A stretch of DNA of 64,000 nucleotides from Candidatus Woesearchaeota archaeon (GTDB lineage: Archaea > Nanobdellota > Nanobdellia > Woesearchaeales > JACPBV01). Made by a program: the position numbers and the translations under genes. Location of the stretch: contig JACPBV010000004.1 of the NCBI GenBank assembly GCA_016180135.1, positions 26,868-90,867 of the forward strand. Reading direction: 5' to 3'. Positions 281 to 62,935 of the stretch are shown here, one piece after another. The notes beneath the pieces are model-generated. The model saw only the letters and a list, made by a program, of their open reading frames with translations. It searched no databases and was not told where the DNA came from. Each line of letters begins with the position of its first letter. Positions within the stretch are counted from its first letter, which is position 1.

Positions 281-2002
281 ATGACTCCCATCATCCGCAT
301 AGGCAACGAGCTCCACCCCGTCTCCGGCATAGAAGGCTCCCCGAATGCCGAGATGATATTCCAGCACGCCCTGCTCAACGAAAACGAAAAGAGGGGGGAA
401 AGGGGGAAGGTCTCAGGAGAAAAGATCTTCAGCGATAAAAACCTTGGAGAGAAAACTGATAATTCAAAAATCCCCATGAAGAAATCACGGGAAGATGGAT
501 CCCAGGGAAATAAATCCCAATTTGAGTTTATAATGTTTTCAAGGCCGTTTTCCAAAGAGACAAAGCAGAAATGCCTCAATGATGCGTATGCCTCGGACAG
601 GGAGGTTTTGAACTTCCTCCTGTCCAGCGAAAGGTGGTATGGGCCGATGGTATCCAGCAAGGCCGAAGCCTGGGCTCTTATTCAAAACACCTATTTCATC
701 CCATGGACTTCTTTCGAAAGGCTTTGCTATTGGTTTGTAAAAAAATCATTTTTGAAAAGTTTTTTTTACGGGCTGCTGGCCATAAGCTACCATCGGAGAA
801 CTGCGTCAGCGATCCAAAAGCTCCGTCTCCAAGCTCCTATCATCCACCTGTATAACCGCCCGTTGGCATGGCTGATGAAACCGAAGTTGAAAGGCTGCAG
901 GCCGATTTTTGTTTTGGAGATGCAGAACAGCCATCTCGTGCAGAAGCATAGTATCTTCAAAGGCATCATTCAGAAATTGCTCAACAGTGCTGCTGCTCAG
1001 TTCAAAAAGATAATTTTTGTCAGCGATTTTCTCAGAGATGAGTATAGGGGAGAGTGTAAAGGAGAATGTAAAGGAGAATGTAGGGGAGAGTGTAAAGGAG
1101 AATGTAAGGGAGAGTGTAAGGAAGAGTGTAAAGGAGAATGTAAGGGAGAGTGTAAAACCGAATCTGCAGATGAAAAAATTGAAGAAAGCCGCCACAGCGA
1201 TTGCTCATGCTCACCTCATTTATCCCAATATTCCGTCGCATATAACGGAGTCTCAACAATACATCAGTATTTGGGAGCTCATCCTGCCTTATTGGCAGGA
1301 GATGGCCTGAGCCTCTCGCATTGGAAGTCCTCGCTGTTCCCGCAGTTGAAAAACCTCACTCCAGACACCAGCCTCCGCATCCTCTTCAGCGGAAGGATTG
1401 TGAGGGAAAAAGGCCTCCATATACTTTTGGATGCCCTCCGGCTTCTTGCTGATAGCCGGCAGAAAAGAAATTCGGTAAGGAAGAAGCAGATCCAGAAAAT
1501 AGAGCTGCGCATAGCCGGCTCGCCGTATTTTGGCAGAGAGGGAAGCTCCCCCTATGTTCGGGAAATCCTCCGGAAGATAAAGCAGCTTGAGCTGGAAAAT
1601 ATCAAGATAACCTTTATGGGATTCCTTGACAAATGCTCCCTCTCGAAGGAATACCTTGCGGCAGATATTCTCGTCGTTCCTTCATTATGGGACGAGCCCT
1701 TCGGCAACGTGGTTATCGAGGGGATGTATTTCAAATGCATTGTCGTTGCAGCAAGGAGTGGAGGGATTCCTGAGATACTAGAAAACAAAAAGACAGGATT
1801 CTTGGTCAGCAAAGGAAATGCTTCTGAGCTTTCCCGCCTGCTTGAAAATATCAGCCTGCGAACCCCAAGGGATGATGCCTCCCTTAAAGCCCTGGCCAGA
1901 AACGCAAAAAAGAGCGTTGAGCAGAAATTTCTGATGCAGCACCATTTCAGTGCCGTGATGGATGTTTACAGAGAGATTGTCAAAAATGAAACCTGGCGAT
2001 AG
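281..2002 (+). CDS. glycosyltransferase family 4 (GT-B, GT1-type C-terminal domain) with low-complexity insertions
   Basis: The C-terminal half has the classic GT4 pattern: RILFSGRIVREKGLHILLDAL ... ADILVVPSLWDEPFGNVVIEGMYFKCIVVAARSGGIPEIL..KTGFLV. The N-terminal start is uncertain. Confidence 0.8.
   Translation: MTPIIRIGNELHPVSGIEGSPNAEMIFQHALLNENEKRGERGKVSGEKIFSDKNLGEKTDNSKIPMKKSREDGSQGNKSQFEFIMFSRPFSKETKQKCLNDAYASDREVLNFLLSSERWYGPMVSSKAEAWALIQNTYFIPWTSFERLCYWFVKKSFLKSFFYGLLAISYHRRTASAIQKLRLQAPIIHLYNRPLAWLMKPKLKGCRPIFVLEMQNSHLVQKHSIFKGIIQKLLNSAAAQFKKIIFVSDFLRDEYRGECKGECKGECRGECKGECKGECKEECKGECKGECKTESADEKIEESRHSDCSCSPHLSQYSVAYNGVSTIHQYLGAHPALLAGDGLSLSHWKSSLFPQLKNLTPDTSLRILFSGRIVREKGLHILLDALRLLADSRQKRNSVRKKQIQKIELRIAGSPYFGREGSSPYVREILRKIKQLELENIKITFMGFLDKCSLSKEYLAADILVVPSLWDEPFGNVVIEGMYFKCIVVAARSGGIPEILENKKTGFLVSKGNASELSRLLENISLRTPRDDASLKALARNAKKSVEQKFLMQHHFSAVMDVYREIVKNETWR
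1047..1156 (+). repeat. in-frame 12-nt tandem repeat encoding (G-E-C-K/R)n inside the GT4 gene
   Basis: About 9 units of ggaga(a/g)tgtaa(a/g) translate to RGECKGECKGECRGECKGECKGECKEECKGECKGECK. They lie between the two Rossmann-like halves. Confidence 0.85.
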
Positions 2003-6202: not shown

Positions 6203-6330
6203 GAAAAGATTTTAGAGTTGGGTGTTTGTCAAATCACGGGAAATCCCCCCTCCCCCCTTTAGGCGGGGACGAGGTCACGATGGGTATACCTTTCTCGTTG
6301 GGCATTATCTTTTTTAGGGCTGTAGAAATA

Positions 6331-7845: not shown

Positions 7846-7905
7846 CTATGAATCACTTTTCCGCAGGAGCGGCTCTGCCGCCTAAGGTCAAAACTCAATT
7901 GACAT
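7846..7905. mobile_element. solo 5-prime-arm fragment of the family-B hairpin element
   Basis: tatgaat...ccgcaggagcggctctgccgcctaaggtcaaaactcaattgac matches the B 5-prime arm (ccggcaagagcggctctgccatcctaaggtcaaaactcaact). No matching 3-prime arm follows. Confidence 0.5.
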
Positions 7906-7970: not shown

Positions 7971-9884
7971 ATGTGCGGCATAGCTGGAATTTACAGCCTC
8001 AGCGGAAAGGAGGCACCCTCAGCAAGAGTCATCACAGAGATGGCAGACTCCATGGCTCATCGTGGCCCTGAAGATTCGGGGATCTATCTCGGCAAAGGGA
8101 TAGCATTTGGCCACAGGAGGCTTCGCATCCTTGATTTGTCAGAGAAAGGAAAGCAGCCGATGATGGACAGGGAAAAGGAGATAGTGATAACCTTCAACGG
8201 CGAAATTTACAATTTCCGGGATATCAGGGATGAGCTTATCAGCCTGGGATATTCTTTCTCTTCAGCGTCTGACACTGAAGTGATCCTCAGCGCTTACCGG
8301 CAGTGGGGGATTGAATGCATCCAAAGGTTCAACGGCATGTTTGCCTTTGGACTTTACGACGGGAGGAAGCAGAAGCTTTTTCTTGTGAGGGACAGGCTTG
8401 GGAAAAAGCCGCTTTACTATTCCATTGTGGATGGCGCTCTTATATTCGCTTCCGAAATTAAGGCGATTTTGAGATATCCTCATTTTGTTGCTGAGCCAAA
8501 TTGGAAAGCTATCTCTTCATATCTTTCTTTTAGGTATGTCCTCGGGAAAGATTCTTTCTTTAGCCGCATAGTAAAAGTCCTTCCCGGCCATTATCTTGAG
8601 ATCTCCGGCGGTAAGATTGATGAAAAAGAATATTGGGATATTCCGCTGGTTGCGAAAAAGGGTGATAGGGGCATAGCCTATTACAAAGCATCAATTAGAG
8701 AAAAATTAACCAGGGCAGTGAAGCTGAGGATGGTCAGTGATGTCCCTCTGGGGGCTTACCTGAGCGGCGGCCTTGATTCCAGCATAATTGTTGCCCTGAT
8801 GGCGCAGCTTACAGGAAAAGTGAGGACGTATTCTGTCGCATTTGACGTTGAGGGATATGATGAGCTGCAGTATGCTAAGCTCGTCGCAGAAAAGTTTAGC
8901 ACGGAGCACACGGAAATCAGGCTGAAGGCAGGAGACTATATGGGGGCGATGAAAGAGCTTATCAGATTCAAAGATGAGCCTCTTGCGGTCCCGAATGAAG
9001 TTCCCATCTACCTCATGTCAAAAGTGCTGAAAAAAGACATCACTGTTGTCCTCTCAGGGGAAGGCTCTGACGAGCTTTTCTATGGGTATGGGAGGCTTTT
9101 CAGGAGCCCCTTTGACTATGCCCGGCTGAAGATGCTTCCTGCAGGCCTGAGGAATTTATTTCTGAAATCTCTCGGAAAGAAATATGGCAGTAAATCATTC
9201 TCTTCTGAGATGGAGCATTTCCTTCACCTCTACAGCTATTTCCCGAATGGGGAGAAAAACAGCCTGTTCAATCCTTTTATGAAGTCGCTGTGCCGTGACG
9301 ATGAGGGCCTTCATGCGCTTTTCCGGAAATATTTTGACAGGGCGGAAAATCTAAATTATTATGACAAGATCAGCTATGTGTTTGAGAAGATCCACCTCGT
9401 CGGCCTTCTCGGAAGGCTGGATAATGCGACGATGGCTGCCGCTGTGGAGGCAAGGGCACCCTTTGTTGACCATGAGCTTGTCGAGTTTATGTTTAATGTC
9501 CCAAAAAAATACAAGCTGCACTGGAAGTCTGCTTTTTCTTTCTTCAGAGGTTTGCTCAAAAATTCTGACGAGATCAGCGAAAACCTGGATATCACCAAAT
9601 GGATATTAAGGGAAGCATTTAAGGATGATGTCCCCGAAAAGATTATCAGCAGGAAAAAACAGGGATTTCCTGTCCCGCTTGACGCATGGTTCAAGGGAAA
9701 ATTCATCAGCGACGCAAAGAAGTATCTTCTTGGCCCCGAAGCAAGGATAAGAAAGATTATTGACCAGCAGAATCTTGAATCATGGATAAACAGAAACCTT
9801 AATAACAGCGCAGGCACCTCCTTCGGTCAGAAAGTGTGGATGCTGCTGAATGTCGAAATATGGTTAAGGGAGTATTTTGGATGA
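7971..9884 (+). CDS. asnB: asparagine synthase (glutamine-hydrolysing) family amidotransferase
   Basis: The N-terminal MCGIAGIY has the catalytic Cys2. The PP-loop SGGLDSS is present. Length (637 aa) and C-terminal region are typical of AsnB. Confidence 0.9.
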   Translation: MCGIAGIYSLSGKEAPSARVITEMADSMAHRGPEDSGIYLGKGIAFGHRRLRILDLSEKGKQPMMDREKEIVITFNGEIYNFRDIRDELISLGYSFSSASDTEVILSAYRQWGIECIQRFNGMFAFGLYDGRKQKLFLVRDRLGKKPLYYSIVDGALIFASEIKAILRYPHFVAEPNWKAISSYLSFRYVLGKDSFFSRIVKVLPGHYLEISGGKIDEKEYWDIPLVAKKGDRGIAYYKASIREKLTRAVKLRMVSDVPLGAYLSGGLDSSIIVALMAQLTGKVRTYSVAFDVEGYDELQYAKLVAEKFSTEHTEIRLKAGDYMGAMKELIRFKDEPLAVPNEVPIYLMSKVLKKDITVVLSGEGSDELFYGYGRLFRSPFDYARLKMLPAGLRNLFLKSLGKKYGSKSFSSEMEHFLHLYSYFPNGEKNSLFNPFMKSLCRDDEGLHALFRKYFDRAENLNYYDKISYVFEKIHLVGLLGRLDNATMAAAVEARAPFVDHELVEFMFNVPKKYKLHWKSAFSFFRGLLKNSDEISENLDITKWILREAFKDDVPEKIISRKKQGFPVPLDAWFKGKFISDAKKYLLGPEARIRKIIDQQNLESWINRNLNNSAGTSFGQKVWMLLNVEIWLREYFG

Positions 9885-10794: not shown

Positions 10795-10828
10795 TATTTC
10801 CACGCCTTTATCATCCAGCTCCCGCCCC
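10795..10828. repeat. 34-bp perfect direct repeat, copy 1 (flanks the PIN/AbrB cassette)
   Basis: tatttccacgcctttatcatccagctcccgcccc is identical to 11553-11586. Confidence 0.9.
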
Positions 10829-11242
10829 TTTATCGTGCTCAATTCTTGAAAGAAATTCCGCAGGCGTCAGGATAGAAACTCCCTGGTATTGTTTTAGTTT
10901 GAGAAGGTGCCTGTCTCCAGTCACAATGAACTCTGCCTTTGCGGCAATTGCGCAGGACAGCACCTTGTCATCCTTAGGGTCTTCTTGGACAGCAATAACT
11001 TGGATGGTAGGTTCGATTATTGTTGAAATTGTTTTGAAAAGGCTTATCTGACGTTGGATAAACTCTTCAGGCACATCAAAGTCCCTTTTTTGGCTTTCTT
11101 CCATCTCCAAAAGCATCTCTGGTGAGGTAAAGCTGCTGATCTGCTGCTGGAGCGCAAGCCGGACAATGGCGTGGGGTTTTCCTAGCTCCCAAAAAATTGA
11201 AGAGATCAGGATATTGGTATCCAGCACAACCCTTTCAGGCAT
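10811..11242 (-). CDS. PIN-domain toxin (VapC-like)
   Basis: VVLDTNILISS (N-terminal acidic Asp) ... FIVTGDRHLLKL... matches the PIN_3-type pattern. It lies immediately downstream of an AbrB-type antitoxin. Confidence 0.8.
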   Translation of the reverse strand: MPERVVLDTNILISSIFWELGKPHAIVRLALQQQISSFTSPEMLLEMEESQKRDFDVPEEFIQRQISLFKTISTIIEPTIQVIAVQEDPKDDKVLSCAIAAKAEFIVTGDRHLLKLKQYQGVSILTPAEFLSRIEHDKGAGAG

Positions 11243-11243
11243 C

Positions 11244-11504
11244 CTAAGCCCCTCTGCCCCGATGGATTTTTTTGACTACTGCTTCTTCATCTTTGATTCC
11301 CTTTTGCTGTGCAAATTTTTGCCCCCAGCGGGTAAGCTCTTGAAATTCCTTCTCAAGTTCAGTCATATTCATCTTTTTTATCACCACTGCATCACGTATT
11401 GTGCTGATGGCAACAGCAGTTCCTGGCATCAGGTCTAGCTCATTGCGGATTTCTAGGGGTATTACTACCTGCCCTTTAGTTGAAATCTTTGAAATTTCAG
11501 TCAT
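11244..11504 (-). CDS. AbrB/MazE/SpoVT-family antitoxin
   Basis: ISTKGQVVIPLEIRNELDLMPGTAVAIS is the swapped-hairpin AbrB motif. The start is moved to Met29 (11504) to avoid running into the upstream methyltransferase gene. Confidence 0.75.
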   Translation of the reverse strand: MTEISKISTKGQVVIPLEIRNELDLMPGTAVAISTIRDAVVIKKMNMTELEKEFQELTRWGQKFAQQKGIKDEEAVVKKIHRGRGA

Positions 11505-11551
11505 GGTAGTCCTCAAGTTGGAAAGTAATACTTTCTTACTTAAAAAACTTC

Positions 11552-12337
11552 CTATTTCCACGCCTTTATCATCCAGCTCCCGCCCCATATTTTCTCAAGC
11601 TGCCGCACAAGCCATTTATTGGGAAATTTGTCCCCGAGGGAATTGATCAGTGGCCTCCGCCAGACTTTAACTCTGCTGAACTGGGTGAACAGCCTTTTGA
11701 TTCCGGCTTTGGTATACACCCTTACCAAGGGCACATTCCCTTCAACTTCATAATGCTTATGGACGATTTCGCTCCAGCTGAGCCTGAAAAATTCCCCGCG
11801 CAATATCCCGTGCCACAGCGGAAAAAATAAGTAATACATCCACCCCCGTGCATAAAGCATGATGACTGCGCTCTTCCCCGGCTTTAAAGCGCGGTGAACT
11901 TCATTGATCGCTTTTCGTGTGTCCGGCGTATGGTGCAGAACTCCAAAGCTGTAGGCAAAATCAAAGGTATTGTCAGGAAACTCAAGATGCTCTGCATCCA
12001 TCCTTTTGAAATGCCCCCTCAACCCGTAGAGCTTGAATCTTTTTGCAGTAGTCTCGATGGCATTCTGGGTCAGATCGACCCCGTAAACTGCCGCGCCATG
12101 CTTCGCAAACATCAGGCTGTCGGTCCCGATGCCGCAGCCGACCTCCAGGATCTTCTCCCCGGCATGCCTGTTGAATTCTGCATCGCTGAGCAGGAAAGGA
12201 TATTGGGTGGTGAACCTCACCCGCTCCACCTCGTCATAGTATTCTTTGGTGCCGGCTTCCTTTTGAGAATACCACCGCTGGGGCAGTTTCCCTTCCCAGT
12301 ATCCCCTGATATTTTCCTTGTCTTTTACCGGCTTCAT
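11552..12337 (-). CDS. class I SAM-dependent methyltransferase
   Basis: ILEVGCGIGTDSLMFAKHGAAVYGVDL (motif I) and FDFAYSFGVLHHTPD are present. Confidence 0.8.
   Translation of the reverse strand: MKPVKDKENIRGYWEGKLPQRWYSQKEAGTKEYYDEVERVRFTTQYPFLLSDAEFNRHAGEKILEVGCGIGTDSLMFAKHGAAVYGVDLTQNAIETTAKRFKLYGLRGHFKRMDAEHLEFPDNTFDFAYSFGVLHHTPDTRKAINEVHRALKPGKSAVIMLYARGWMYYLFFPLWHGILRGEFFRLSWSEIVHKHYEVEGNVPLVRVYTKAGIKRLFTQFSRVKVWRRPLINSLGDKFPNKWLVRQLEKIWGGSWMIKAWK
11553..11586. repeat. 34-bp perfect direct repeat, copy 2 (covers the last codons and stop of the methyltransferase gene)
   Basis: Identical to 10795-10828. On the minus strand it encodes ...GGSWMIKAWK-stop. Confidence 0.9.
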
Positions 12338-15690: not shown

Positions 15691-15864
15691 GTATGTATTA
15701 AGCTCCGGCAAGAGCGGCTCTGCCATCCTAAGGTCAAAACTCAACTATCAAACTAAATCGCGCTCGTCGTGGGGGGATGCCCCCTCGGGGACACAGAGCC
15801 CTTGCCAAATCAATTGGGAGTTTTGAAGAGGGCAGAGCCGCTCCAAGGGGAGCTTAATACATAC
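15691..15864. mobile_element. family-B long-hairpin MITE-like element, copy B1 (174 nt)
   Basis: The 16-bp terminal inverted repeat is gtatgtattaagctcc / ggagcttaatacatac. Inner perfect stems are gagcggctctgcc/ggcagagccgctc (13 bp) and tcaaaactc/gagttttga (9 bp). The GC-rich core is ggggggatgccccctcggggacacagagcc. The flanking 8-mers match only imperfectly (atcctctg vs cttctgca). Confidence 0.7.
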
Positions 15865-21003: not shown

Positions 21004-21177
21004 GTATGAATTAAGCTCCGGCAAGAGCAGCTCTGCCATCCTAAAGTCAAAACTCCATCCAAAAAGACAGCCAGCCCGTTGCGGGGGGTTGTCCCTTACG
21101 GGGACGCAGGGCCATCGCCAGACTTATCGGGAGTTTTGAAGATGGCAGAGCCGCTCCGAGGGGAGCTTAATTTATAC
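21004..21177. mobile_element. family-B long-hairpin MITE-like element, copy B2 (174 nt)
   Basis: The inverted repeat is gtatgaattaagctcc / ggagcttaatttatac. The same 13-bp and 9-bp inner stems are present. The core is gcggggggttgtcccttacggggacgcagggcc. The flanking 8-mers tgtgtttg / ggtgtttg match 7 of 8. Confidence 0.75.
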
Positions 21178-23763: not shown

Positions 23764-23930
23764 GCGGCTCCGTTCAAAATATAGGTTAGCAGCCTAAAGT
23801 AAAAATCATTTGCCCTCTGAATCCAGCTGACAAGGGGGACGCCCCCAACGGGGAATGTCAGCAACTGAAAAATCACTTTGGGATTTTTAAGCTGCTAACC
23901 CGAGCGAAGCGAGATTTTGAACGGAGCCGC
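23764..23930. mobile_element. family-C long-hairpin MITE-like element (167 nt)
   Basis: Terminal inverted repeat gcggctccgttcaaaat / attttgaacggagccgc (17 bp). Inner stems are ggttagcagc/gctgctaacc and gctgaca/tgtcagc. The core is agggggacgcccccaacgggg. An 11-bp direct repeat gcaaaatcagc sits at 23755-23765 and 23929-23939. Confidence 0.7.
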
Positions 23931-24525: not shown

Positions 24526-24714
24526 GTTTGCTGACTCTCCTTTTGATAATCTATACTTACGGAAAAAAATAATTATACAATTGTTGTCCGTTCGTAATAA
24601 GCCAACGACAACTTTTTGTCTAAATATTTGCGTCGTTGGCTATATTATATGCTCAGGAATTATTCCGCAAAGTCTGAACCCTCTTTCAAATTCATCAAAT
24701 AAATTAGCGCTATA

Positions 24715-24829
24715 GAAAATTTCAACAACCTCGGCGAGGCGAGGCTGGGGGTCGCCCCATCGGGGTAGCCGAGCAGGGCAAATTTCCAGAGGAAATTTGA
24801 CCGTCGAGCCATGTGTTGTTGAAATTTTC
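24715..24829 (+). repeat. family-A structured repeat, copy A1 (115 nt)
   Basis: A 15-bp closing stem gaaaatttcaacaac / gttgttgaaattttc encloses ctcggc...gtcgag, a GC hairpin (ggctg-ggggtcgccccatcgggg-tagcc) and the hairpin caaatttcc-aga-ggaaatttg. Confidence 0.75.
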
Positions 24830-24858
24830 GCGCATTGCACCTCATAAGAGGTGTCTTT

Positions 24859-24955
24859 AAATGCAAACATTTAATCATTCTCCTGCTAATCGGATTTTTT
24901 TTTTGAATGCAAATATTTAATGATTCTCTGGATGGTGGTGGCCGGATTTCGTTTA
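24859..24955 (+). repeat. degenerate family-D-like element (D3), adjacent to A1
   Basis: aaatgcaaacatttaatcattctc and gaatgcaaatatttaatgattctc resemble the D 5-prime end aaatgcaaatattcc. ggtggccggatttcgttt resembles the D 3-prime end ggtggtcggatttctttt. Confidence 0.35.
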
Positions 24956-24988
24956 ATCTTTCTATGCTAAATGCTTCTTCTACTTGCC

Positions 24989-26823: not shown

Positions 26824-26853
26824 TGTTGAGTCAGCATCTCCCTGCGGGCGGTT

Positions 26854-27003
26854 AAATGCAAATATTCCACCAGTCTTTGACTGGTGGTTGACGCTCGATT
26901 AGACGTTGGGAATATTTGCCTTCTCAGAAATCCGACCCGAGCGACCGAAGGGAGCGAGCAATCCCCCCCGTCTGTGACGGGGGGTGGTCGGATTTCTTTT
27001 GAA
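26854..27003 (+). repeat. family-D two-domain structured repeat, copy D1 (~150 nt)
   Basis: Domain 1 is gcaaatattcc/ggaatatttgc enclosing ccaccagtc-ttt-gactggtgg. Domain 2 is agaaatccgacc/ggtcggatttct enclosing cgagcgaccgaagggagcgagc and ccccccgtc-tgt-gacgggggg. Confidence 0.7.
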
Positions 27004-27628: not shown

Positions 27629-27688
27629 GCTGCTGAAATTTCAGCAATGTTTAAAAAGGTTCCTCTATTCGAAGAATAAGGAAAAATC

Positions 27689-27987
27689 GTATGTATTAAG
27701 CTCCGGCAAGAGCGGCTCTGCCATCCTAATGTCAAAAACTGTTGTTTTTGAGCATGCTCAGAAATCGTAACTATTATAATAAGATATGACGATTTCTGAC
27801 AGGTCAAAACTCAACTGTCTAACTGAATCACGCTCGTAGTGGGGGGATGCCCCCTCGGGGACACAGAGCCCCTGCCAAATCAGTCAAGAGTTTTGAAAAC
27901 CCTAAGAAGCGAAGTTTCGTGGGTGCCAATAATGCGCAAGCATTATTAAGCATGGCAGAGGCGCTCCAAGGGGAGCTTAATACATAC
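27689..27987. mobile_element. family-B element, copy B3 (299 nt), carrying two nested insertions
   Basis: Same 16-bp inverted repeat and core as B1. Perfect 8-bp flanking duplication gaaaaatc (27681-27688 and 27988-27995). Relative to B1 there are extra segments of about 70 nt in the 5-prime arm and about 55 nt in the 3-prime arm. Confidence 0.8.
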
Positions 27988-28000
27988 GAAAAATCACAAA

Positions 28001-29078: not shown

Positions 29079-29230
29079 GAAAATTTCAACAACATCGGCG
29101 AGGCGAGGGAGGGCCGCCCTCCGTCCGCAGACCGGAACGCTGGATTATCCCTCCGTCCGCAGACCGGAACGCTGGATTATCCCTCCGTCCGCAGACCGGA
29201 ACGCTTTTTTTTCCCTCCGTCCGTTTTCTC
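29079..29230 (+). repeat. family-A element, copy A3: 5-prime half only, followed by tandem expansion
   Basis: It starts gaaaatttcaacaacatcggcgaggcgaggg as other A copies do, then runs into 32-nt tandem units. No gttgttgaaattttc 3-prime arm is present. Confidence 0.6.
29117..29223 (+). repeat. perfect 32-nt tandem repeat (ccctccgtccgcagaccggaacgctggattat), 2 full units plus 24-nt and 11-nt partial units
   Basis: Units read directly at 29117-29148, 29149-29180 and 29181-29204, then T8, then ccctccgtccg. Confidence 0.9.
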
Positions 29231-32305: not shown

Positions 32306-32620
32306 GTGGCAGATGCAAAGCTCTTCGGGCTTATCTTTTTATTGATCGCCGTCTTCTCAACGTTCGCCTTTGGAGTTTCCGGCTTTAAAACTATCATGGG
32401 AATAATTTTTGCTTTCTTCCTCCCAGCATACCTTATTCTCAAAAAAAGCGCCTTTTCCGAAAACGAGAAATTATTTTTTTCAATTTTCCTAGGCGCAGTC
32501 CTTTTTCCCGCCTTAATCTATTGGCCTGCCGTCATCATGCCGTTGAAGGCAGCTGTTCCCTTAGTATTTCTGCTTGTCTCAGGAGCGGGATTAATTTTTC
32601 TTCTGAAATCAAAGAAATAG
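32306..32620 (+). CDS. small 3-4 TM membrane protein paired with the upstream GT-C-like gene
   Basis: The ORF-track frame 32189-32620 overlaps the upstream gene by 86 nt. GTG at 32306 is a plausible start, but the start is uncertain. Sequence: ...FLPAYLILKKSAFSENEKLFFSIFLGAVLFPAL.... Confidence 0.4.
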   Translation: MADAKLFGLIFLLIAVFSTFAFGVSGFKTIMGIIFAFFLPAYLILKKSAFSENEKLFFSIFLGAVLFPALIYWPAVIMPLKAAVPLVFLLVSGAGLIFLLKSKK

Positions 32621-32627
32621 TTTCTTC

Positions 32628-32791
32628 GTATTTGTTTAGCATCCTAAGATCGAAACGCTTCTGGGCTTACCGTTGGGTCCGTCGCGGGGGCCGCCCTCCT
32701 TCCCGAAGGGACAGGAACGTTTTTCCACCCCTACGGGGACGCAGGACATCCATATCTCCCGTCGAGCGTTTCGAAGATGCTAAACAAATAC
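32628..32791. mobile_element. family-F long-hairpin MITE-like element (164 nt), related to family B
   Basis: 16-bp perfect inverted repeat gtatttgtttagcatc / gatgctaaacaaatac. Perfect 8-bp flanking duplication gtttcttc (32620-32627, 32792-32799). The core is cacccctacggggacgcagg. Confidence 0.8.
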
Positions 32792-32861
32792 GTTTCTTCA
32801 GGAAAATCAGGAATTTCCCCTCAAAACAAAAAGCCCCAAACCCCCCAATCCGAAAAAAGAA

Positions 32862-43017: not shown

Positions 43018-43065
43018 TCCAACTATATAAAGATTTCATTTTGGAGTATGGATTAAACTGTAAAA

Positions 43066-43184
43066 GAAAATCCCAACAACAAAGGGCTCGACGGTCAAAT
43101 TTTTCTCTGAGAAAAATTTGCCCTGCTCGGGCACCCCGATGGGGCGACCCCCGCCCTCGCCTCGCCGATGTTGTTGGGATTTTC
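43066..43184 (-). repeat. family-A structured repeat, copy A2 (119 nt, inverted orientation)
   Basis: The closing stem is gaaaatcccaacaac / gttgttgggattttc. It differs from other copies by three compensatory pairs. The inner modules are conserved in reverse complement. Confidence 0.75.
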
Positions 43185-43238
43185 CAAATGCAGTCTATTT
43201 TTTTCTTCGACGGAGCTTAATACCTGCATTTCAGGGTT

Positions 43239-45790: not shown

Positions 45791-45812
45791 AGGGGAGGTA
45801 TTTTTCCCAAAA

Positions 45813-45933
45813 GAAAATTTCAACAACATCGGCGAGGCGAGGGCGGGGGTTTGTCCCTTACGGGGTGCCCGAGCAGGGCAAAATTTCCACAGAGGAAATT
45901 TTGACCGTCGAGCCCTTTGTTGTTGAAATTTTC
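45813..45933 (+). repeat. family-A structured repeat, copy A4 (121 nt)
   Basis: Same closing stem as A1. The inner hairpins are gggcg-ggggtttgtcccttacgggg-tgccc and caaaatttcc-acaga-ggaaattttg. Confidence 0.75.
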
Positions 45934-46032
45934 GCACATTGCAACCTAAAACTGCAGTTATGGGGAAGTGCGTTGATTGGGGGACACAATAGGGATTTAC
46001 ATCAATCCCCTTTACAACACCATTCGAGTATT

Positions 46033-46180
46033 AAATGCAAATATTCCACCAGTCTCTGACTGGTGGTTGACTCTCGATTAGCCATTGGGAATATTTGCCT
46101 TCTCAGAAATCCGACCCGAGCGACCGAAGGGAGCGAGTAATCCCCCCGTCTGTGACGGGAGGTGGTCGGATTTCTTTTGA
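46033..46180 (+). repeat. family-D two-domain structured repeat, copy D2
   Basis: More than 90 percent identical by eye to D1 (26854-27003), with the same four stems. Confidence 0.7.
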
Positions 46181-46254
46181 ATAATTGCGGCAAATGTAGC
46201 ATAACTACTGCAATTATCTATATTTTTCTGATGTAGAAGTTTTATCCAATATCT

Positions 46255-47211: not shown

Positions 47212-47502
47212 TTGGCTTCAAAAGAAGGCATGGAGACGGATGTAGACAGAGTTCTTGCTAGTGTCAGGAAGAAGCGTTTGCTGATGGAAGTCGAGGTCAA
47301 GGGCCTCATCGAGAAGAAGGAAGAGGAAATTTCCATCCCCTTAAGCATTTTCTCGGAGAGATTAGGCATGCTTGAGTCTATCGTTCATTATCTCAGGGAT
47401 TCTCATGGGCTTTCTTTTACAGAGATTGCAGGGCATCTAAAGCGGGACTACAAGACAGTCTGGGCGACATATCAGCAGGCAAAGAAAAAGTATAAGCGAT
47501 GA
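47212..47502 (+). CDS. small helix-turn-helix protein (sigma-70 region-4 / LuxR-like HTH), translationally coupled to the giant ORF
   Basis: LGMLESIVHYLRDSHGLSFTEIAGHLKRDYKTVWATYQQAKKK looks like an HTH. The stop overlaps the giant-ORF ATG (ATGA at 47499-47502). The start may be TTG 47212 or ATG 47230. A TATA-like ctttataaac lies at 47181-47190. Confidence 0.55.
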   Translation: MASKEGMETDVDRVLASVRKKRLLMEVEVKGLIEKKEEEISIPLSIFSERLGMLESIVHYLRDSHGLSFTEIAGHLKRDYKTVWATYQQAKKKYKR

Positions 47503-50500
47503 AACAATCCAGCAAAGTTAAGGAAATCAGCGCAGGCATAAGGGAGCTCAGGCTCTCAGGGAAAAATGCCGATAATGCCAGAAAGAGCTATGCAAGGCTG
47601 CTGGAAGCCTTGCTTCAGGAAAAAGAAAAACTGCAGTCTCATCTCAGCAAAGGGATTCTATCAGAGCAGAACTATGATCAGATTCTCCAGGAAAATCTTG
47701 ACGGCAAAACCAGGATGCAATGGATTGCCTATTGTGAAAATATCCTTGGCAGCGCAGATTCCAAAAAACAGCAGTATCGCCGATGGGTCGGAGTTCTTGA
47801 GGACGACATTGGCCGGATTAAACGATCTTTCAGGAAGGGAAGCATCTCCCAGGAAGCATACCATCATCTCCTGAACCAGAAGATTGAGGGAAAAACCAGG
47901 GAAGGATGGATTGTATCCGCAAAAATGGCGTTGTATGGTCTGGAAGAGGGTGAATCCCTGGCGGGCGCTCAGGGAATTTTAAGCCGCAGCGCATCGTCAG
48001 TAATCAGAGCATCAAAATCGCTGCTAGAAGAGAAAAAGGAACTCCTCGTTAACACCGCCCCTATAATATTGATGCTCTTGCTTCTCAGCCTCTCAGCTTT
48101 TTTTATCAGCCCGGCGCACACCGGATTTGCAGTCATAAGCATAGAGAATGGATTTGAGGATTCCTTAAACCTCTCCCTCAACGGGTCATCCTCATTCCTC
48201 TGGGCCCCGGCCAGCCACGGAATGATAACGAACATTGCAGTCAGCGGAAGGCTTTCAAAAGGTGCCGGAGCAAAAATCTACCTCGAAAAGGCCGGCAGGC
48301 TTTATCTGCTCCTTGATACTGAAGCTGGCTTGAAGACAGAAACAGTTTTGCAGGAAATTCCCGGCATTGCTGCTGGAATCAGTTCCCTCCCGCAGCAAAA
48401 GATCCCCCTCACCGGAGAGATTGAAAACCTATCTGTTGCCCTTATCGGCTCAGGGCCAGTTCAATCAGCAAATGATATATTTAAATTCGGCTTGAAGCAA
48501 AGGGCAGGATTAGACAACAGCTCTTCAGTCCCTGATGAGAACTTCTGCGCACTATGGAAAGTGAACAATGTTTCGGCAGAGTGCTATGGAAATGCTGACT
48601 GCTGCAGTTTTGCGGGCCTCGAAGCCAGTGGCTCCTGGAATGATACGTTCTACCTGTATTCCGGAAGATTCAGCGCAAAGAAAGACAATCTCATTGAGCC
48701 AATCCTTATCTCTTACGATGTCAATCTGAGCATCCCGAAGTCCGATATTAGGATTTCCTCCGCAGTTGCGGAAGCCCATTTTGCGGATGAGCTGGAGAGA
48801 TTCAGCCTTGCATGCATGGAAACGTGCAGCGGCCTGGAGTTTAACGAATCGCGATACTCTCTTGTTGTCTCTTTGGCAATTGGCTCGCTCATCCTTGACA
48901 GCATCTCTTACAAAATGGCCGAAAGCTATAACGTATCAGAAAATTCCCCTCTGCTCCAAAAGAACATCTCTAATGTGTCGCTCTACCAAAACGAAAACAT
49001 CACGTTAAGCCTTAATGATTTCTTTGCCGATGCAGACTCCGATGCGCTGGTATACTATGCTTATCCTGCAGAAAATATCAGCTTTTCTTTTTACCAGGGG
49101 AACATCACCGTCATCCCTGATAAGGATTTCCTCGGCAAAGCATCAACATTTTTTACTGCCTCAGACGGCTTTTTTAATGCCACTTCAGGAATAATTGATA
49201 TTGAGGTTGCTGAAAAGCCGCTCCTCCCGGCTCAGGTATCGGTCACCCAAACTCCCATAAAACCCAAGGTAAGGGTCAATGAGCCGGTGAAATGGGTTAC
49301 AAGAGTTAATTCCACCAGGAAAGTCATAAACCTCACGATGAGCCTGGCGCACGGGGCTGAGAACATCTCCGTCAGAGAATTGACTCAGGGCAGCATTGAT
49401 ACCTCAAGAGTCATTGATACATCCAAAGTGATTGATACATCCAAAGTGATTGATACCTCAAGAGTCATTGATACTGCTGGATTCATGAATCTTAAATCAG
49501 TATTTGTCAGCGAGCAGGGCCAGACTAAAAACCTCTCGCTCTATAATGCCGAAAAGTATTTGGCCAGGCTTGAATCCAGGGAGGAGATGCTTATTGAAAC
49601 CAAAAGGGGAAAGATTAAAAATGACCCGACGGAAATTGAAGCTCTGAAATCTCTTAACACCCAATTGCGTGATGTTGAAAACGAGAAAAACCGGATTACA
49701 GGATTTGTTGTTGCCCAAAGAGGGCAGAAAGGCATTATAACCCGATTTTTTGAATGGCTCATCCAATCAGACCTCGTCGGATTTGCCATCCTCAACGCCC
49801 CATTAGCTCCAATCACCACTCCCTCCACTAATCTCATCCCCACCCCCACAACTAATCACGCCACTAACTCCTTCCCCACTCCCTCCACTAATCTCATCCC
49901 CACCCCCACAACTAATCTTGAAGAGCCTGGCGAAAATGCCCATCCCCCAGTATTGACGATTGCCGAGGGGATTAAAGAAGCCGAGATTACTTATTTCACG
50001 GAAGCTCCGGTTGCCGAGGAATTCAATCTGTCAGAGTCAGGCAAGCGCATTATCATCAGCTCAGACATCCACTATGAAAACATTACGGCTTTCACTTACC
50101 TCCCCGGCGAATATGCCTCTTCAGGCATCCATCTGTATTGGATGAAAAACGGCTCAAGGGAAGAGGTAAATTTCACAGCATTTGATGAAAACAATAACGG
50201 CAGGATTGATTATATCGAATGGATCATCCCCTCGTTGTCAAACCAGACATATGATCTCTCCCTCACCATCATCACACTGAAGAGTTATCCTATCATTGGA
50301 AGAAACTGGACGACAGAGTTTAATGTTTCCGGCACAGCAAACCTCACGATCACTGCAGTCAACAGCACAAGTTTTGGCCAGGTCTACGTTGACAATTTCT
50401 CCTCGGAAGACGACCTCTATCTCAGGGAACTGAAATGCGGTAATCTCACCGTATGGAACAACGGCACAAATTATTCATCAGGCAATGTTTTCTTCGTCCT

Positions 50501-53500
50501 CAGCAATGGCACCGAGGCAGCCTGGAGCGAAACATTCGGAAACAGCCTTCCAGTAACTTCCTTAAAAGTTGTTGACTTCAGCTGCAGCAGTTCAGCGTAT
50601 CACATTGTCAAGGTTGAAACCCACGGGGACCATGTCCAGGAATTCACTTTTGGAAATATCACAAAATATGCTTACAATCATGCAGGGGGGACAGCATGCG
50701 GTTCAGACGGCCTCGGCTCAACCTGCCAGGGAGGGGGAAATGCCAGCCTTGACACGTGCATTGATACTGACAGCTCTAACACGCTTGATGGGTCGGATTT
50801 CTGCCATGGCGCTAACCAATGCCTTGATTCCCATATCGGCGCTTCCTGCAACTATGCCACCGGCCCGACATCAGGGCTCTGCGCCTACAACGGTGCAACC
50901 TCTGCAACCTGCTCAAACCTCGTAATCTCCGGGGAGTATGGCACAGGCATAACTGGCGGTTCTTCAGTAAACTTCCACAGCGGCAATGAAAATTCATCAT
51001 GCTCCCCTGCATCAGAGATGATGGTCTGCAATATCTCTACGGGATACAACCCTCAGGGCGGTGATCTCTGCCTCGACTCATCATGCACGGATCCTGCAAG
51101 CGGGATTGTTTCCCTTAACTGCATCGATCAATCCTGCTCAACGTCGGATGTCAGTGATGCGGCAGTATTCGGCGACTGTAATGCCACGGGCGGAGGCTGG
51201 GCCTGTGACAGCAGCCTTGGCTCATCAGGGTTTGCCCAGGACGGGATTTGCTCAGTGACCTCTGGATTTAACACCTATGGGTGCGCAGCTTCCGGATATA
51301 TCTGCAATGCTACCTCGGGCCCTTTTGCCGGAACTATCTTCAAAAATGGCTGCGGTGTTGGCATGGAGTGTTCAGACAACGATCCCTGCGACTCCTCATT
51401 GACAGACGGCAATTTCAATAAGGCAGCAGGCACATGCTCGGGCACAGACTGTGTCGGTGTCGCAGTTGCCAGCATCTATGCATTCAACCACTCTAAAACC
51501 TCGCCGACAAGCCTCTACCTCGTGAACGGCTCAGTGAACTCCTCCGTCATCAACGGAACAAATATAACCCATAATCAGACCTTAAACTTTACCCACCCGA
51601 CGTTTGGCCTTCGGCTCCAGATTATCGCAAACTTCTCAAGCTGGGATGTTGACATTTCCAACCTTACCATTGACGCAAACAACTTCAGCACTGCCGTGAA
51701 TTGGACATTTGTTGACCAGAGAGCTGTCCCCAAGAATCACACGCTCTACGTCCCCAACACCCTCCAGCTTGGCGTGTATGCATGCGGAACAGCAAACAGC
51801 ACAGGGGAAGTTTTCCCAAAATGCCCGAACAGGACGGTCTGGACGGACTCGGAATTGGGGGCAGGCTCGGTCGTCGTAAGGAATGGGCTCGTAGCGTATG
51901 AGCTTTCTAATCGTTACGTTGTCTCCAACCTTTCGGGCTCCGGAATAGGTCAGGGTGTTGCAGAATGCGGAGCGCTAAACCGTGAGAACGTCACCTATAA
52001 CCTCCTTCAGTCAGTCACTGATACTGACACCTGTTTCACAATCTCCGCCAATAATGTTACGCTTGACTGCAACAATTTTTCCATCACTTATGCAACTGCA
52101 GCTAACGGTAATGGCATCACCGTCAGCAATGTAAACAGGACAACGATCAGGAACTGCACCTTCATCAAGACCTCCGGTCAGGGCTCCTCATATGCCGTTC
52201 AGTTGTCTGGAGCAAACAATGCATCCATCAGCAACAGCTCATTCACTGCTGCTTCTTTAATTTCTTACCCGATTTACCTGACTTCATCCTCAAGGACAAA
52301 CCTGATTCAGAACAACAACATCACCGCTTCAGGAGGGAGCCCCGGAATCTATATTGATTCTTCCTCGGGACAGAACATCATCCTTAACAACAACATTACG
52401 ACTGTCGCAGCCTCGGCGCCTGCTGTTTACATCACTGGCTCTTCCAACAACACCCTTGACGGGAACAATATCACCACCGCCGGAAAAGCATCGTTCGGCA
52501 TACAGCTTGATGCCTCATCTTTTAACACAACTATAATCTTTAACAACATTACGACCGAAGGGAACTCATCTCACGCAGTCTATATCCTTGCAGCCTCAAA
52601 CTTTACCAAAGTATTGAAAAATGTAATCATCACAAAAGGATGGACATCATCCGGTATCATGATTTCTGATGCGTCATACAATATGGCCGAGAACAACTCC
52701 CTGGATATCCTCAACAGCACTAACGCAGCCTTTTACATCAACCAAAGCTCGCTTGCAAACAGCTTTTCAAAAAACAATGTGACTTTCTCAAGAGGGGACG
52801 CAATCCATATCATCTATGACCCGAAGCCGACCTCAGATGGGGGGCCTGTCCCGAGGTTCAATAATTTCTCGAACAACACGTTCTCCAATATATCCGGCTT
52901 TGACCTGATGCTCACCCCTATGATAAGTGCTCCCGGAGTTTCCCAGATAAACCTTACCACCCTGATTGACCAGCCCATAAAGAGATACAACTTCACCAAT
53001 TATGGCGGCTTGTTTGCCATAAGGTCATCCGAATTTGGGGAAATCGCTTTTTTCACCGTCATCAACGGCTCAGGAACAAATTTCAGCAATGATATTATCA
53101 TCAAAAATAATTCTATCACAGTTAATGCTTCAGCAGGGAATGGAATATTCAACAGCTCAGCAAACCTTACATTCTTTAACCTAGGGGACAGGGGCTTTGC
53201 CAATCCCGCCATTCTTTACAACGGTGGAACGTGTGATTTAACCACCTCCCCGCTCTGCCTGAACTTTACCGGCCTTACTGCTGCGACGGTCATCTTGAAT
53301 GTTACTCATTTCAGCAATTACAGCATCGGGGGTCAGGTTGATTTAAGCACACCTACTGTCTCTGTCATCTCGCCAACGCACAGGAACTACACGCTAAGGC
53401 AGATCGACTTCAACATTTCCCTGAATGAGGCAGGGAGCGCATGCAAAATGGCATTGGACAGCGAGGGAAATATCACGATGAGCGCTGTAAACAGCTCTTA

Positions 53501-62465: not shown

Positions 62466-62554
62466 GGAAATCAAGGTTTCATCCCAAAAAGTCCGAGAAT
62501 AGGGTGCACAATTCCCCATAGGGCATTTCTTAAAAGTAATTATCGTTTTTTTTC

Positions 62555-62603: not shown

Positions 62604-62608
62604 AAAAA

Positions 62609-62844
62609 GAAAATTTCAACAACATTGGCGAGGCGAGGGTGGGGCCGCCCTCCGTTGCGAAGCAACCGGAACGCAGGATTATTCCTCCGTCCGCAGACCG
62701 GAACGCTTTTCCCCCCCATCGGGGTGCCCGAGCAGGGCAAAATTTTCGCGGAGAAACCTCCGAGCGGTAGCGAGCGAGGCACAAAAAACCCTAAAGGGTT
62801 TTTTCGTGAATTTGACCGTCGAGCCCTTCGTTGTTGAAATTTTC
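62609..62844 (+). repeat. family-A structured repeat, copy A5 (236 nt, expanded)
   Basis: It has the canonical closing stem. Two copies of the ccctcc-hairpin-ggaacgc submodule are inserted in the GC hairpin, and the AT hairpin is enlarged. Confidence 0.7.
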
Positions 62845-62935
62845 TGCGCAATGCAGCTTATAAAGAACCCACAAAACCTGTTTTATTTAACCGTCTTTTT
62901 CAGAAAGCTTTAAAACAATTCTTTGACTTATGCCT

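What the first reader, a model, noticed from the sequence alone, without database searches (positions are those of the whole stretch)
15771..15800. A common GC-rich core hairpin unites otherwise unrelated repeat families
All families carry C3-5 / 2-4-nt loop / G4, usually preceded by a G-run.
- B1/B3: ggggggatg-ccccc-tc-gggg-acacagag.
- B2 and A4: gtccc-ttac-gggg.
- F: cacccc-tac-gggg-acgcagg.
- A1/A2: gcccc-atc-gggg.
- C: gccccc-aac-gggg.
- D: ccccccgtc-tgt-gacgggggg.
- A weaker look-alike occurs at 6246-6275 (ccccctttaggcgggg).

Different terminal arms with a shared inner core suggest one of three things: a protein- or RNA-recognition module carried by several vehicles, recombination among families, or a common ancestor with rapidly evolving ends. 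The G-run / C-run / G-run arrangement allows alternative pairings.
Basis: partly seen in the sequence, partly recalled or inferred. Interest (0 to 1): 0.7.

Follow-up and report, generated by a model that had tools for sequence, protein, structure and literature searches.

The report
Shared GC core in archaeal MITEs
Several small mobile repeat families in this uncultured Woesearchaeota genome carry the same short G-run/C-run/G-run hairpin module, closed by a stem that co-varies, because the families are related mosaics rather than unrelated elements; this is a modestly interesting new variant of miniature transposons.

Summary
The three-part motif (G4, 2-6 nt, C3+, 2-4 nt, G4) occurs 6 times against 0.24 expected, always inside intergenic repeats.

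The phrase "otherwise unrelated families" is wrong.
- B, C and F are inverted-repeat MITEs with 8-bp target-site duplications.
- They share an asymmetric CUAARG/A internal loop, an AU-rich stem, and (B and F) similar GTAT termini.
- In A, B, C and F the core lies inside a 4-bp closing stem that co-varies (59 of 60 cells paired).
- A second module, X, lies between the G-run and the C-run in both A and F copies.
- Core and X variants cut across family boundaries.
- One A subfamily is carried between B-type ends.
- D's hairpin and the look-alike at 6246 are not the same motif.

The window comes from a Candidatus Woesearchaeota MAG. The same families occur in a relative whose XPD helicase is only 59% identical. 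There is no Rfam match and no transposase in the window.

Best reading: a mosaic superfamily of non-autonomous transposons shares a structured central domain by descent plus exchange between families. Whether that domain works as RNA, as single-stranded DNA or as a protein-binding site is unresolved. The A family looks RNA-like.

The parts
15691..15864 (+). B1, a foldback MITE of family B. The core domain is 15762-15799: closing stem GCTC/GAGC, G-run 15771-15776, C-run 15780-15784, G4 15787-15790.
   Evidence: 38-nt inverted arms (I3). Fold of -89 kcal/mol, z = -8.8. Copies listed. Core-domain hit. The target-site duplication is degenerate.
21004..21177 (+). B2, family B. The core domain is 21074-21112 (GCCC...GGGC) with the core variant GGGGGGTTGTCCCTTACGGGG.
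   Evidence: (I2). The flanks TGTGTTTG and GGTGTTTG match at 7 of 8 positions.
27689..27987 (+). B3, family B with two internal insertions. The core domain is 27832-27869.
   Evidence: (I1). A perfect 8-bp target-site duplication, GAAAAATC, lies at 27681-27688 and 27988-27995.
7860..7898 (+). Fragment of a family B 5' arm (GAGCGGCTCTGCC..CCTAAGGTCAAAACTC).
   Evidence: (D10).
23764..23930 (+). C, a single-copy foldback MITE. The core domain is 23829-23859 (GACA...TGTC; GGGGG-ACG-CCCCC-AAC-GGGG). Its inner arms are F-like (TTAGCAGC-CTAAAG-TAAAAATC).
   Evidence: 27-nt inverted arms (I4). Fold z = -6.1. AAAATCA flanks the element directly on both sides. Shared arm module.
32628..32791 (+). F, a single-copy MITE with termini GTATTTGTTTAGC.../...GCTAAACAAATAC. 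The core domain is 32677-32747 (GTCC...GGAC), with module X at 32691-32724 between the G-run and the C-run.
   Evidence: A perfect 8-bp target-site duplication, GTTTCTTC, lies at 32620-32627 and 32792-32799. Homologues in L003 and L015. Module X alignment.
24714..24849 (+). A1, family A. The core domain is 24743-24770 (GGCT...AGCC).
43066..43184 (-). The core domain is 43129-43156. It sits between a B-type left terminus (about 43201-43222) and a B-like right terminus (about 43038-43051).
   Evidence: Left-end match p < 0.005; right-end match 12 of 14, p = 0.065.
45812..45953 (+). A4, family A. The core domain is 45841-45870, with the core variant GGGGGTTTGTCCCTTACGGGG (almost the same as B2's).
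62608..62863 (+). Family A copy with two insertions. Module X (62645-62710) lies between the G-run and the C-run. A second insert lies in hairpin P3. The core domain is 62637-62729.
   Evidence: (D5, D6).
29079..29223 (+). Truncated family A copy: the 5' half plus three tandem 32-nt X units. It has no C-run/G4 and no 3' half.
   Evidence: (D6).
26852..27003 (+). D1. Its hairpin CCCCCCGTC-TGT-GACGGGGGG (26964-26984) is not the shared core.
   Evidence: (D7, D16). There is no preceding G-run, and the descriptor finds no closing-stem architecture here.
46031..46181 (+). D2, 95% identical to D1. The hairpin carries an uncompensated G-to-A change.

Best explanation
The hairpin is the tip of a conserved central domain shared by one mosaic superfamily of non-autonomous DNA transposons (MITEs) in a Candidatus Woesearchaeota genome.

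Shown:
- B, C and F are foldback elements with long inverted arms and 8-bp target-site duplications, so they were inserted by a cut-and-paste (DDE-type) transposase supplied in trans.
- In A, B, C and F the centre holds the same small domain: a 4-6 bp family-specific closing stem, then a G-run, a short loop, a C-run, two to four nt ending in C, and GGGG.
- The C-run can pair with the downstream GGGG (the beta hairpin, possible in every copy) or with the upstream G-run (the alpha hairpin). The two are nearly iso-energetic.
- The G-run/C-run junction is the one place where extra modules (X, or another insert) are tolerated.

Inferred:
- The domain is shared for two reasons. B, C and F descend from one ancestor. 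Copies of different families also exchange their central parts by recombination or template switching at the shared GC-rich stretch, which gives chimeras such as A interiors between B-type ends.
- The domain is kept because the element must fold as a single strand, whether as a transcript or as single-stranded or cruciform DNA. The GC hairpin is the stable nucleation point of that fold.
- Its exact molecular partner is unknown.
For: Target-site duplications and inverted arms.
- The inverted arms are listed.
- 8-bp duplications: B3 GAAAAATC, F GTTTCTTC, C AAAATCA(+1) and B2 7 of 8; L003-B CCACTGCC and L003-F GAAAAATG.
- B and F have similar termini: GTATGTATTAAGC and GTATTTGTTTAGC.

Shared arm module in B, C and F (CUAARG/A loop plus two stems).
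- 69 of 70 cells are paired and 7 of 14 pairs show changes on both sides.

Closing stem around the core, in 15 distinct copies from 4 families.
- 59 of 60 cells are paired.
- 3 of 4 pairs show changes on both sides.
- For the closing stem and beta hairpin counted together, the covariation score is 0.52 against 0.16 in shuffles (0 of 500), and the slid controls collapse.

The two alternative hairpins.
- Beta is present in all copies and has one compensatory change (L003-A, CUCC/GGAG).
- Alpha is impossible in L005-A.
- Their energies are close.

Exchange between families.
- Module X lies at the same junction in A copies (62645, 29105, L002) and in F copies (32691, L003, L015). Its two variants each occur in both families.
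- Core variants do the same. A4 nearly equals B2, and L006-A nearly equals C.
- A interiors lie inside B-type ends in the window and in L002, with a 7 of 8 target-site duplication in L002.

Mobility.
- The A copy between XPD and PCMT is absent at the syntenic site of GCA_016180165.1.
- The F-like copy there is absent at the syntenic window site.
- B is 89% identical between genomes whose XPD is 59% identical.
- Logan contigs break inside the repeats.

The motif occurs only in repeats.
Against: - No transposase gene lies in the window or in the fetched loci, so the autonomous partner is unseen.
- Standard A copies show no convincing target-site duplication.
- A copies have invariant unpaired blocks, co-varying internal helices and a variable-length hairpin. 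That pattern is more typical of a functional RNA than of a decaying MITE.
- Only about 16 core domains from five sources were available.
- The core-domain and arm alignments (A3, A6) were normalised by hand to the proposed structure, which favours it.
- Co-variation between the two arms of an inverted-repeat transposon can arise from descent from different symmetric masters, without selection on folding.
- Exchange between families is inferred from incompatible character patterns. It was not observed directly.
Confidence: 0.55

Rival explanations
1. The elements, family A in particular, are genes or cis-elements for a structured RNA. On this view the G/C/G core domain is one arm of a three-way-junction RNA. 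The alternative alpha and beta pairings act as a conformational switch or a protein-binding site. The interspersed copies are a multi-copy RNA family, possibly spread by transposition.
For: - The RNAalifold consensus of six compact A copies from four sources has 44 pairs, 16 of them with compensatory changes.
- The blocks GGCGAGGCGAGG, CCGAGYAGGRC and GACCGTCGAGCC are invariant across sources, while helices P1, P2 and P3 vary and co-vary.
- P3 varies from 3 to more than 10 bp, and large inserts are tolerated only at helix tips.
- All nine A copies fold 1-7 kcal/mol better on the G-run-first strand.
- 4 of 5 window copies point the same way as their flanking genes.
Against: - No Rfam family matches even at E <= 10.
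- There is no conserved gene neighbourhood and no conserved promoter-like sequence at a fixed distance.
- One A copy is antisense to its neighbours.
- B, C and F have target-site duplications and 40-55 nt near-perfect arms, which is typical of MITEs.
- A interiors occur inside B-type transposon ends.
- The strand energy differences are small and reverse in B, C and F.
Confidence: 0.2
2. The core is a recognition site for a protein, such as the transposase, a structure-specific nuclease or recombinase, or a host factor. Different families carry it because each needs that protein. On this view the sharing reflects selection for a binding site rather than descent or exchange.
For: - The G-run, the C-run and the CGGGG stretch are kept almost invariant while everything around them varies.
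- Both alternative helices are preserved.
- In L003-A all three runs changed together: GGAGGG, CUCC and GGAG.
- Only a few core variants recur across families.
Against: - No candidate protein gene was found next to any copy.
- DDE transposases normally bind the termini, not the centre.
- L005-A has lost the G-run and L003-F has changed G4, yet both keep the rest.
- B, C and F share long stretches beyond the core, which descent explains more simply.
Confidence: 0.15
3. The resemblance is convergent or due to chance. Any stable foldback element tends to have a short GC hairpin at its tip, so the shared pattern carries no information.
For: - The loose motif is not enriched over the whole window: 15 against 9.8 +/- 3.1.
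- D's hairpin and the 6246 site show that unrelated GC hairpins do occur here.
Against: - The three-part motif occurs 6 times against 0.24 expected (0 of 300 shuffles), and only in repeats.
- Stretches of 13-20 nt are identical across families: A4 with B2, and L006-A with C.
- Module X is shared at the same junction.
- The closing stem co-varies in every family.
Confidence: 0.05

Closest known systems
Prokaryotic MITEs with long foldback arms (for example Neisseria Correia/NEMIS elements, enterobacterial ERIC/IRU, Sulfolobus SM-type MITEs). The comparison rests on my own knowledge of these families.
   Same: - Size of 120-300 nt and non-coding.
- Long inverted arms that fold into one hairpin.
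- Target-site duplications of fixed length.
- Intergenic location and several copies per genome.
- Larger variants made by insertions at fixed internal sites, as in ERIC.
   Different: - Several families with different termini share one small co-varying central domain and a second insert module (X).
- Chimeras between families are seen.
- The host is an uncultured DPANN archaeon.
- No partner insertion sequence has been identified.
REP/BIME mosaic elements mobilised by RAYT (REP-associated tyrosine transposases; PMC2817692, PMC3184786)
   Same: - Short GC-rich hairpins in intergenic regions.
- Combination with other short motifs into mosaics.
- A possible role as single-stranded hairpins.
   Different: - There is no conserved GTAG-type tetranucleotide.
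- The hairpin is embedded in 120-300 nt elements that have inverted arms and 8-bp duplications.
- No RAYT gene was seen.
- Copy density and arrangement differ.
Integron attC sites (recalled from memory as having been reported in archaeal MAGs; not checked against a paper here)
   Same: - Imperfect palindromes between gene cassettes.
- Conserved asymmetry, with unpaired bases on one arm.
- Structure is conserved more than sequence.
- The genes in between are cassette-like (glycan genes, toxin-antitoxin pairs).
   Different: - The R''/R' boxes (RYYYAAC/GTTRRRY) are absent.
- Orientations and families are mixed.
- No integrase gene is present.
- Target-site duplications indicate transposition, not site-specific recombination.
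IS200/IS605-type palindrome-associated elements (PATEs and MITEs with TnpB omega-RNA ends)
   Same: - Conserved hairpins shared by otherwise different small elements.
- Action as a single strand.
- Common in archaea.
   Different: - B, C and F have terminal inverted repeats and 8-bp duplications, which IS200/IS605 elements lack.
- There is no tnpA or tnpB nearby.
- No omega-RNA or Rfam match was found.

Membership tests
MITE (inverted-repeat, transposase supplied in trans) | Short (< about 500 bp) and without coding capacity | tested here: met
   The elements are 119-300 nt and lie in intergenic gaps of the ORF map.
MITE (inverted-repeat, transposase supplied in trans) | Terminal inverted repeats | tested here: met
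   B has 38-42 nt arms and C has 27 nt arms. F has CGTATTTGTTTAGCATC arms. A has a 15-nt terminal stem.
MITE (inverted-repeat, transposase supplied in trans) | Direct target-site duplication of constant length | tested here: met
   8 bp for B3, F, L003-B and L003-F (perfect), B2 and the L002 chimera (7 of 8), and C (7-8). Not met for B1 or for standard A copies.
MITE (inverted-repeat, transposase supplied in trans) | Multiple dispersed copies and presence/absence differences between related genomes | tested here: met
   Copy lists. A is absent at the syntenic XPD-PCMT gap of GCA_016180165.1, and an F-like copy is present there but absent in the window. The genomes are distant, so these are not clean empty sites.
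MITE (inverted-repeat, transposase supplied in trans) | A full-length insertion sequence with the same termini in the genome | not testable with these tools
   No transposase was found in the window or the loci.
REP/BIME with RAYT | 20-40 nt palindrome with a conserved 5' tetranucleotide (GTAG-like), standing alone or in BIME arrays | tested here: not met
   The core has no conserved GTAG and is always embedded in a larger element that has inverted arms.
REP/BIME with RAYT | A RAYT (Y1 transposase) gene flanked by the repeats | tested here: inconclusive
   None was found in the 64-kb window or in about 50 kb of relatives. The rest of the genome was not seen.
Integron attC | R'' RYYYAAC and R' GTTRRRY boxes at the base of the palindrome | tested here: not met
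   Read directly from the sequence. The A ends ...CAACAAC/GTTGTTG... and the B/C/F stems do not fit the boxes.
Integron attC | Uniform orientation in an array next to an intI gene | tested here: not met
   Families and gene orientations are mixed and there is no integrase hit.
Any Rfam 15 RNA family | Covariance-model score at or near the gathering threshold | tested here: not met
   Only the archaeal SRP RNA at 62939-63211 passes. Local scans at E <= 10 give only noise.
IS200/IS605-derived small elements | No terminal inverted repeats, no target-site duplication, and subterminal hairpins at both ends | tested here: not met
   B, C and F have inverted arms and 8-bp duplications. For A the test is inconclusive: no duplication was found, but the ends are complementary to each other.

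The most novel reading that the evidence does not exclude
Family A, and perhaps the whole set, is a previously undescribed class of structured mobile nucleic acid. It would be a roughly 110-nt three-way junction with invariant junction blocks (GGCGAGGC/GUCGAGCC with tandem G-A, and GAGYAG). It would also carry a bistable G-run/C-run/G-run arm that acts as a switch or as a docking site for inserted modules. It would function as RNA or as single-stranded DNA (for example a ribozyme, a guide-like RNA, or a hairpin-recognised transposon end) and could be carried by different transposon ends.
Probability: 0.15. Interest if true: 0.75.

Novelty: new variant of a known kind. Interest (0 to 1): 0.45.

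Why it matters
If the reading holds, these DPANN archaea carry a small mobilome built from interchangeable parts: termini, arms, a GC core domain and an insert module. That would be a clear natural case of module shuffling among MITEs. It would also mark a conserved structured domain whose partner (RNA, single-stranded DNA or protein) is unknown.

In the glycan-biosynthesis region of the window, about 15-33 kb, an element sits in seven of the intergenic gaps between genes or gene groups. The elements could therefore drive cassette shuffling of surface-glycan genes in episymbiotic archaea.

Family A also offers a concrete candidate for a new structured RNA, testable with existing groundwater metatranscriptomes.

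On the practical side, the repeats break short-read assemblies exactly at the core.

Tried and rejected
- **Known RNA families.** Rfam at gathering threshold, and at E-value thresholds on the whole window and on two sub-regions, gave no family for any repeat.
- **tRNA or tmRNA origin.** ARAGORN found none.
- **Known ribozymes and K-turns.** I compared the A junctions by eye with hammerhead, HDV-like and K-turn consensus patterns. None fits: there is no CUGANGA/GAAA core, no P1/P1' complement, and no 3-nt bulge next to the tandem G-A.
- **attC sites.** The R boxes are absent.
- **REP/RAYT.** There is no GTAG and no RAYT gene.
- **Collection scans.**
  - Viral contigs gave 0 hits for the A and B patterns.
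  - The GTDB genome scan for the A pattern gave only 3 loci, in two Woesearchaeota MAGs.
  - The metagenome scan gave 2 loci.
  - A large copy set was therefore unobtainable.
- **Extending the source genome.** The look-up of encoding contigs returned only short Logan contigs that end in the repeats, plus 10 kb downstream that holds no repeat.
- **Target-site duplications for standard A copies and for D.** None was convincing.
- **B-type ends around A copies.** These are significant only for the CCC-variant subfamily.
- **Transposase genes.** None was found in the window or the loci.
- **Insertion-sequence family.** The GTAT termini and 8-bp duplication resemble my recollection of IS66-type ends (GTAA, 8 bp). 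I could not verify this from the literature search, so it remains a lead only.
- **Strand asymmetry of folding energy.** The differences are small and point in opposite directions in A and in B/C/F, so this does not decide between RNA and DNA.

Full report
**Source and setting**

The window is archaeal. It holds an archaeal SRP RNA at 62939-63211, no tRNA, and has about 48% G+C. Two of its proteins are 100% identical to NCBI proteins of a Candidatus Woesearchaeota MAG with a 117,852-bp contig.

The nearest sampled relative is GCA_016180165.1 (JACPBU01). Its XPD helicase is only 59% identical.

Positions 1-33 kb are mostly glycan-biosynthesis genes. There is no transposase, integrase or RAYT in the window.

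**Check of the observation**

| Motif | Observed | Expected from shuffles |
|---|---|---|
| C3-6/N2-4/G4, whole window | 15 loci | 9.8 +/- 3.1 (25 of 300 shuffles reach it) |
| Same, intergenic sequence only (11% of window) | 9 loci | mean 1.7, maximum 7 |
| G4-N2-6-C3-N2-4-G4 | 6, all in repeats | 0.24 (0 of 300) |
| Three-part motif plus a closing stem | 8, all in known repeats | 1.6 |

Copies within a family are not independent, so the real sample is four families (A, B, C, F). That is still far beyond chance.

Two items do not belong:
- D's hairpin (CCCCCCGTC-TGT-GACGGGGGG) has no preceding G-run and a different stem.
- The site at 6246 has a 7-nt spacer and is not repeated.

**What the repeats are**

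Self-comparison defines the following families.

| Family | Copies in the window |
|---|---|
| A | 24714, 45812, 43066 (minus strand), 62608 with two inserts, 29079 truncated |
| B | 15691, 21004, 27689 with two inserts, a fragment at 7860 |
| C | 23764 |
| D | 26852, 46031 |
| F | 32628 |

B, C and F are classical foldback MITEs:
- Their inverted arms are 27-42 nt long.
- Their folds are very stable: B1 at -89 kcal/mol with z = -8.8, and C with z = -6.1.
- They have 8-bp target-site duplications. B3 has GAAAAATC, F has GTTTCTTC, and C has AAAATCA directly on both sides. B2 matches at 7 of 8.
- In the relative's contig L003, a B copy has CCACTGCC and an F-like copy has GAAAAATG.
- B and F termini are alike: GTATGTATTAAGC and GTATTTGTTTAGC.

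**The families are not unrelated**

B, C and F share an arm module. It consists of a stem, an asymmetric internal loop (5' CUAARG opposite a single A), and an AU-rich 8-9 bp stem. In five distinct copies 69 of 70 cells pair, and 7 of 14 pairs show changes on both sides. The slid controls fall to 32-45% paired. C's inner arms (TTAGCAGC-CTAAAG-T...) are F-like at the sequence level.

Within B the arms are the conserved part (91-94% identity). The centre is the variable part (about 62% identity). This is the opposite of 'rapidly evolving ends' within a family.

**The core is part of a larger domain**

In all four families the G-run/C-run/G4 stretch lies inside a short closing stem that is family- or copy-specific:

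| Family | Closing stems seen |
|---|---|
| A | GGGC/GCCC, GGCU/AGCC, GGUC/GACC, GGGG/CCCC |
| B | GCUC/GAGC, GCCC/GGGC |
| F | GUCC/GGAC, GCGC/GCGC |
| C | (CU)GACA/UGUC(AG) |

On a hand-normalised alignment of 15 distinct copies, 59 of 60 closing-stem cells are standard pairs. Three of the four pairs have changes on both sides. For the closing stem and beta hairpin counted together, the covariation score is 0.52 against 0.16 in shuffles (0 of 500). Because I fitted the alignment by eye, the count leans towards the structure. The slid controls (35-70% paired) argue that the stem is real.

Inside the closing stem the C-run has two possible partners:
- **Beta hairpin (C-run with the downstream GGGG).** It is possible in every copy. 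It has one compensatory change (L003-A, CUCC/GGAG). It is the only option in L005-A, where the G-run is reduced to GGG-U.
- **Alpha hairpin (C-run with the upstream G-run).** It has no compensatory change in a fixed register. It would explain why the G-run is kept in 15 of 16 copies. It would also explain why all large inserts lie exactly between the G-run and the C-run.

The two pairings are nearly iso-energetic and the winner differs from copy to copy. Which pairing matters remains open.

**Module exchange between families**

- **Module X.** A second module (GGG-CCGCCCUCCG-hairpin-CCGGAACGC-U run, sometimes as 32-nt tandem units) lies at the G-run/C-run junction in A copies (62645-62710, 29105-29223, L002). 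It lies at the same junction in F copies (32691-32724, L003, L015). Each of its two variants occurs in both families.
- **Other inserts.** L004-A has a different insert at the same spot.
- **Core variants.** These cut across families too. A4 has GGGGGUUUGUCCCUUACGGGG and B2 has GGGGGGUUGUCCCUUACGGGG. L006-A has GGGGGACGCCCCCAUCGGGG and C has GGGGGACGCCCCCAACGGGG.
- **Chimeras.** The minus-strand A copy of the window and the A copy of L002 are homologous well beyond A. Both are flanked by a B-type left terminus (p < 0.005), and the window copy by a B-like right terminus. The L002 chimera has a 7 of 8 eight-bp duplication. An A-type interior can therefore travel between B-type ends.

These incompatible character patterns point to recombination or template switching between families, in addition to common descent.

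**Mobility and distribution**

- The A pattern was found in only two Woesearchaeota MAGs among 185,579 species genomes, in two metagenome contigs, and in no viral contig.
- JACPBU01 carries A, B (89% identical to B1 and B3) and F-like copies. Outside the repeats it shares no detectable nucleotide similarity with the window.
- At the syntenic XPD-PCMT gap the relative lacks the A copy.
- After the syntenic 254-aa gene the relative has an F-like copy that the window lacks.
- Logan contigs of the same organism end inside the repeats. Three of them end at 15772-15776, inside the B1 core.

**Family A looks RNA-like**

Six compact A copies from four sources give a consensus three-way junction with these parts:
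- a terminal stem with an invariant inner part, CAACAAC/GUUGUUG;
- an invariant imperfect helix that can be drawn as GGCGAGGC/GUCGAGCC with tandem G-A and a G-U;
- the closing stem with the core;
- a GAGYAG junction;
- a hairpin of 3 to more than 10 bp that co-varies.

Of the 44 predicted pairs, 16 have compensatory changes. All nine A copies fold slightly better on the G-run-first strand.

Against an RNA gene:
- There is no Rfam match.
- There is no conserved neighbourhood or promoter-like sequence at a fixed distance.
- One copy is antisense to its neighbours.
- No target-site duplication was found for standard A copies, so their mode of spread is unknown.

**Conclusion**

The finding is a real, non-random feature. 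It is best explained as the conserved central domain of a mosaic superfamily of MITEs in Woesearchaeota, shared by descent (B, C, F) and by exchange between families (A with B and F). It is probably kept because the elements must fold as single strands.

The RNA-gene and protein-site rivals remain open. I give them about 0.2 and 0.15 respectively.

The feature is a new variant of a known kind of element. It matches no described family. It is of moderate interest.

Noticed in passing
window 10795-10828 and 11553-11586: A perfect 34-nt direct repeat brackets a PIN-domain toxin gene plus a small upstream ORF (10811-11588) at the 3' end of a methyltransferase gene. It looks like a toxin-antitoxin cassette inserted with duplication of its target.
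   Followed up: no
window 47499-62465: A single ORF of 4988 aa with several internal repeat families, probably a giant surface protein. It was not annotated further.
   Followed up: no
window 1028-1183: A 12-nt tandem array (GAGTGTAAAGGA-like, about 12 units) lies inside the glycosyltransferase ORF 281-2002.
   Followed up: no
window 62939-63211: Archaeal SRP RNA gene (155.6 bits). A family A element with two inserts ends about 75 nt upstream of it.
   Followed up: partly
window, all repeat elements: 11 of the 12 A, B, C, D and F elements have the same (+) orientation in the window. In L003 the orientations are mixed. This could be chance or a replication-related bias.
   Followed up: partly
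window 24857-24960 and 62550-62600; D elements at 26852 and 46031: Short D-like units (TTNAATGCAAAYATT ... CGGATTTNNTTTNAA) lie next to A copies in three places. Full D elements look like the same unit with a roughly 100-nt insert.
   Followed up: partly
window 26940-26960, 23903-23916, 62759-62780; L005 about 8420-8455: A short CGAGCG..AGCGAG motif recurs in D, in the 3' arm of C, in the P3 insert of the 62608 A copy, and upstream of the A-like copy in L005. It may be another shared module.
   Followed up: no
L005 6997-7851 (Ga0209575_10001634): The metagenome contig with an A-like copy encodes a protein with sigma-70 regions 1.2 and 2. Its closest named relative is bacterial, at 37% identity. 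The taxon of this contig is therefore unclear, and the A family may not be confined to archaea.
   Followed up: partly
L012-L014 ends, window 15772-15776; L001, L007, L015 ends: Public short-read assemblies of this organism and its relative break inside these repeats. Three contigs end within the B1 core itself.
   Followed up: yes
window 15-33 kb: Within the glycan-biosynthesis genes, a repeat element occupies seven of the intergenic gaps between genes or gene groups. The layout is cassette-like and could favour recombination between the repeats.
   Followed up: partly
L006 about 900-960 (minus strand): The A copy in L006 is interrupted inside its GUC-GA-GCC block by a roughly 53-nt insert with inverted-repeat ends (AAAAACTTTTTGGTCAC...GTGACCTAAAAGTTTTT). 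It may be a still smaller nested foldback element.
   Followed up: no
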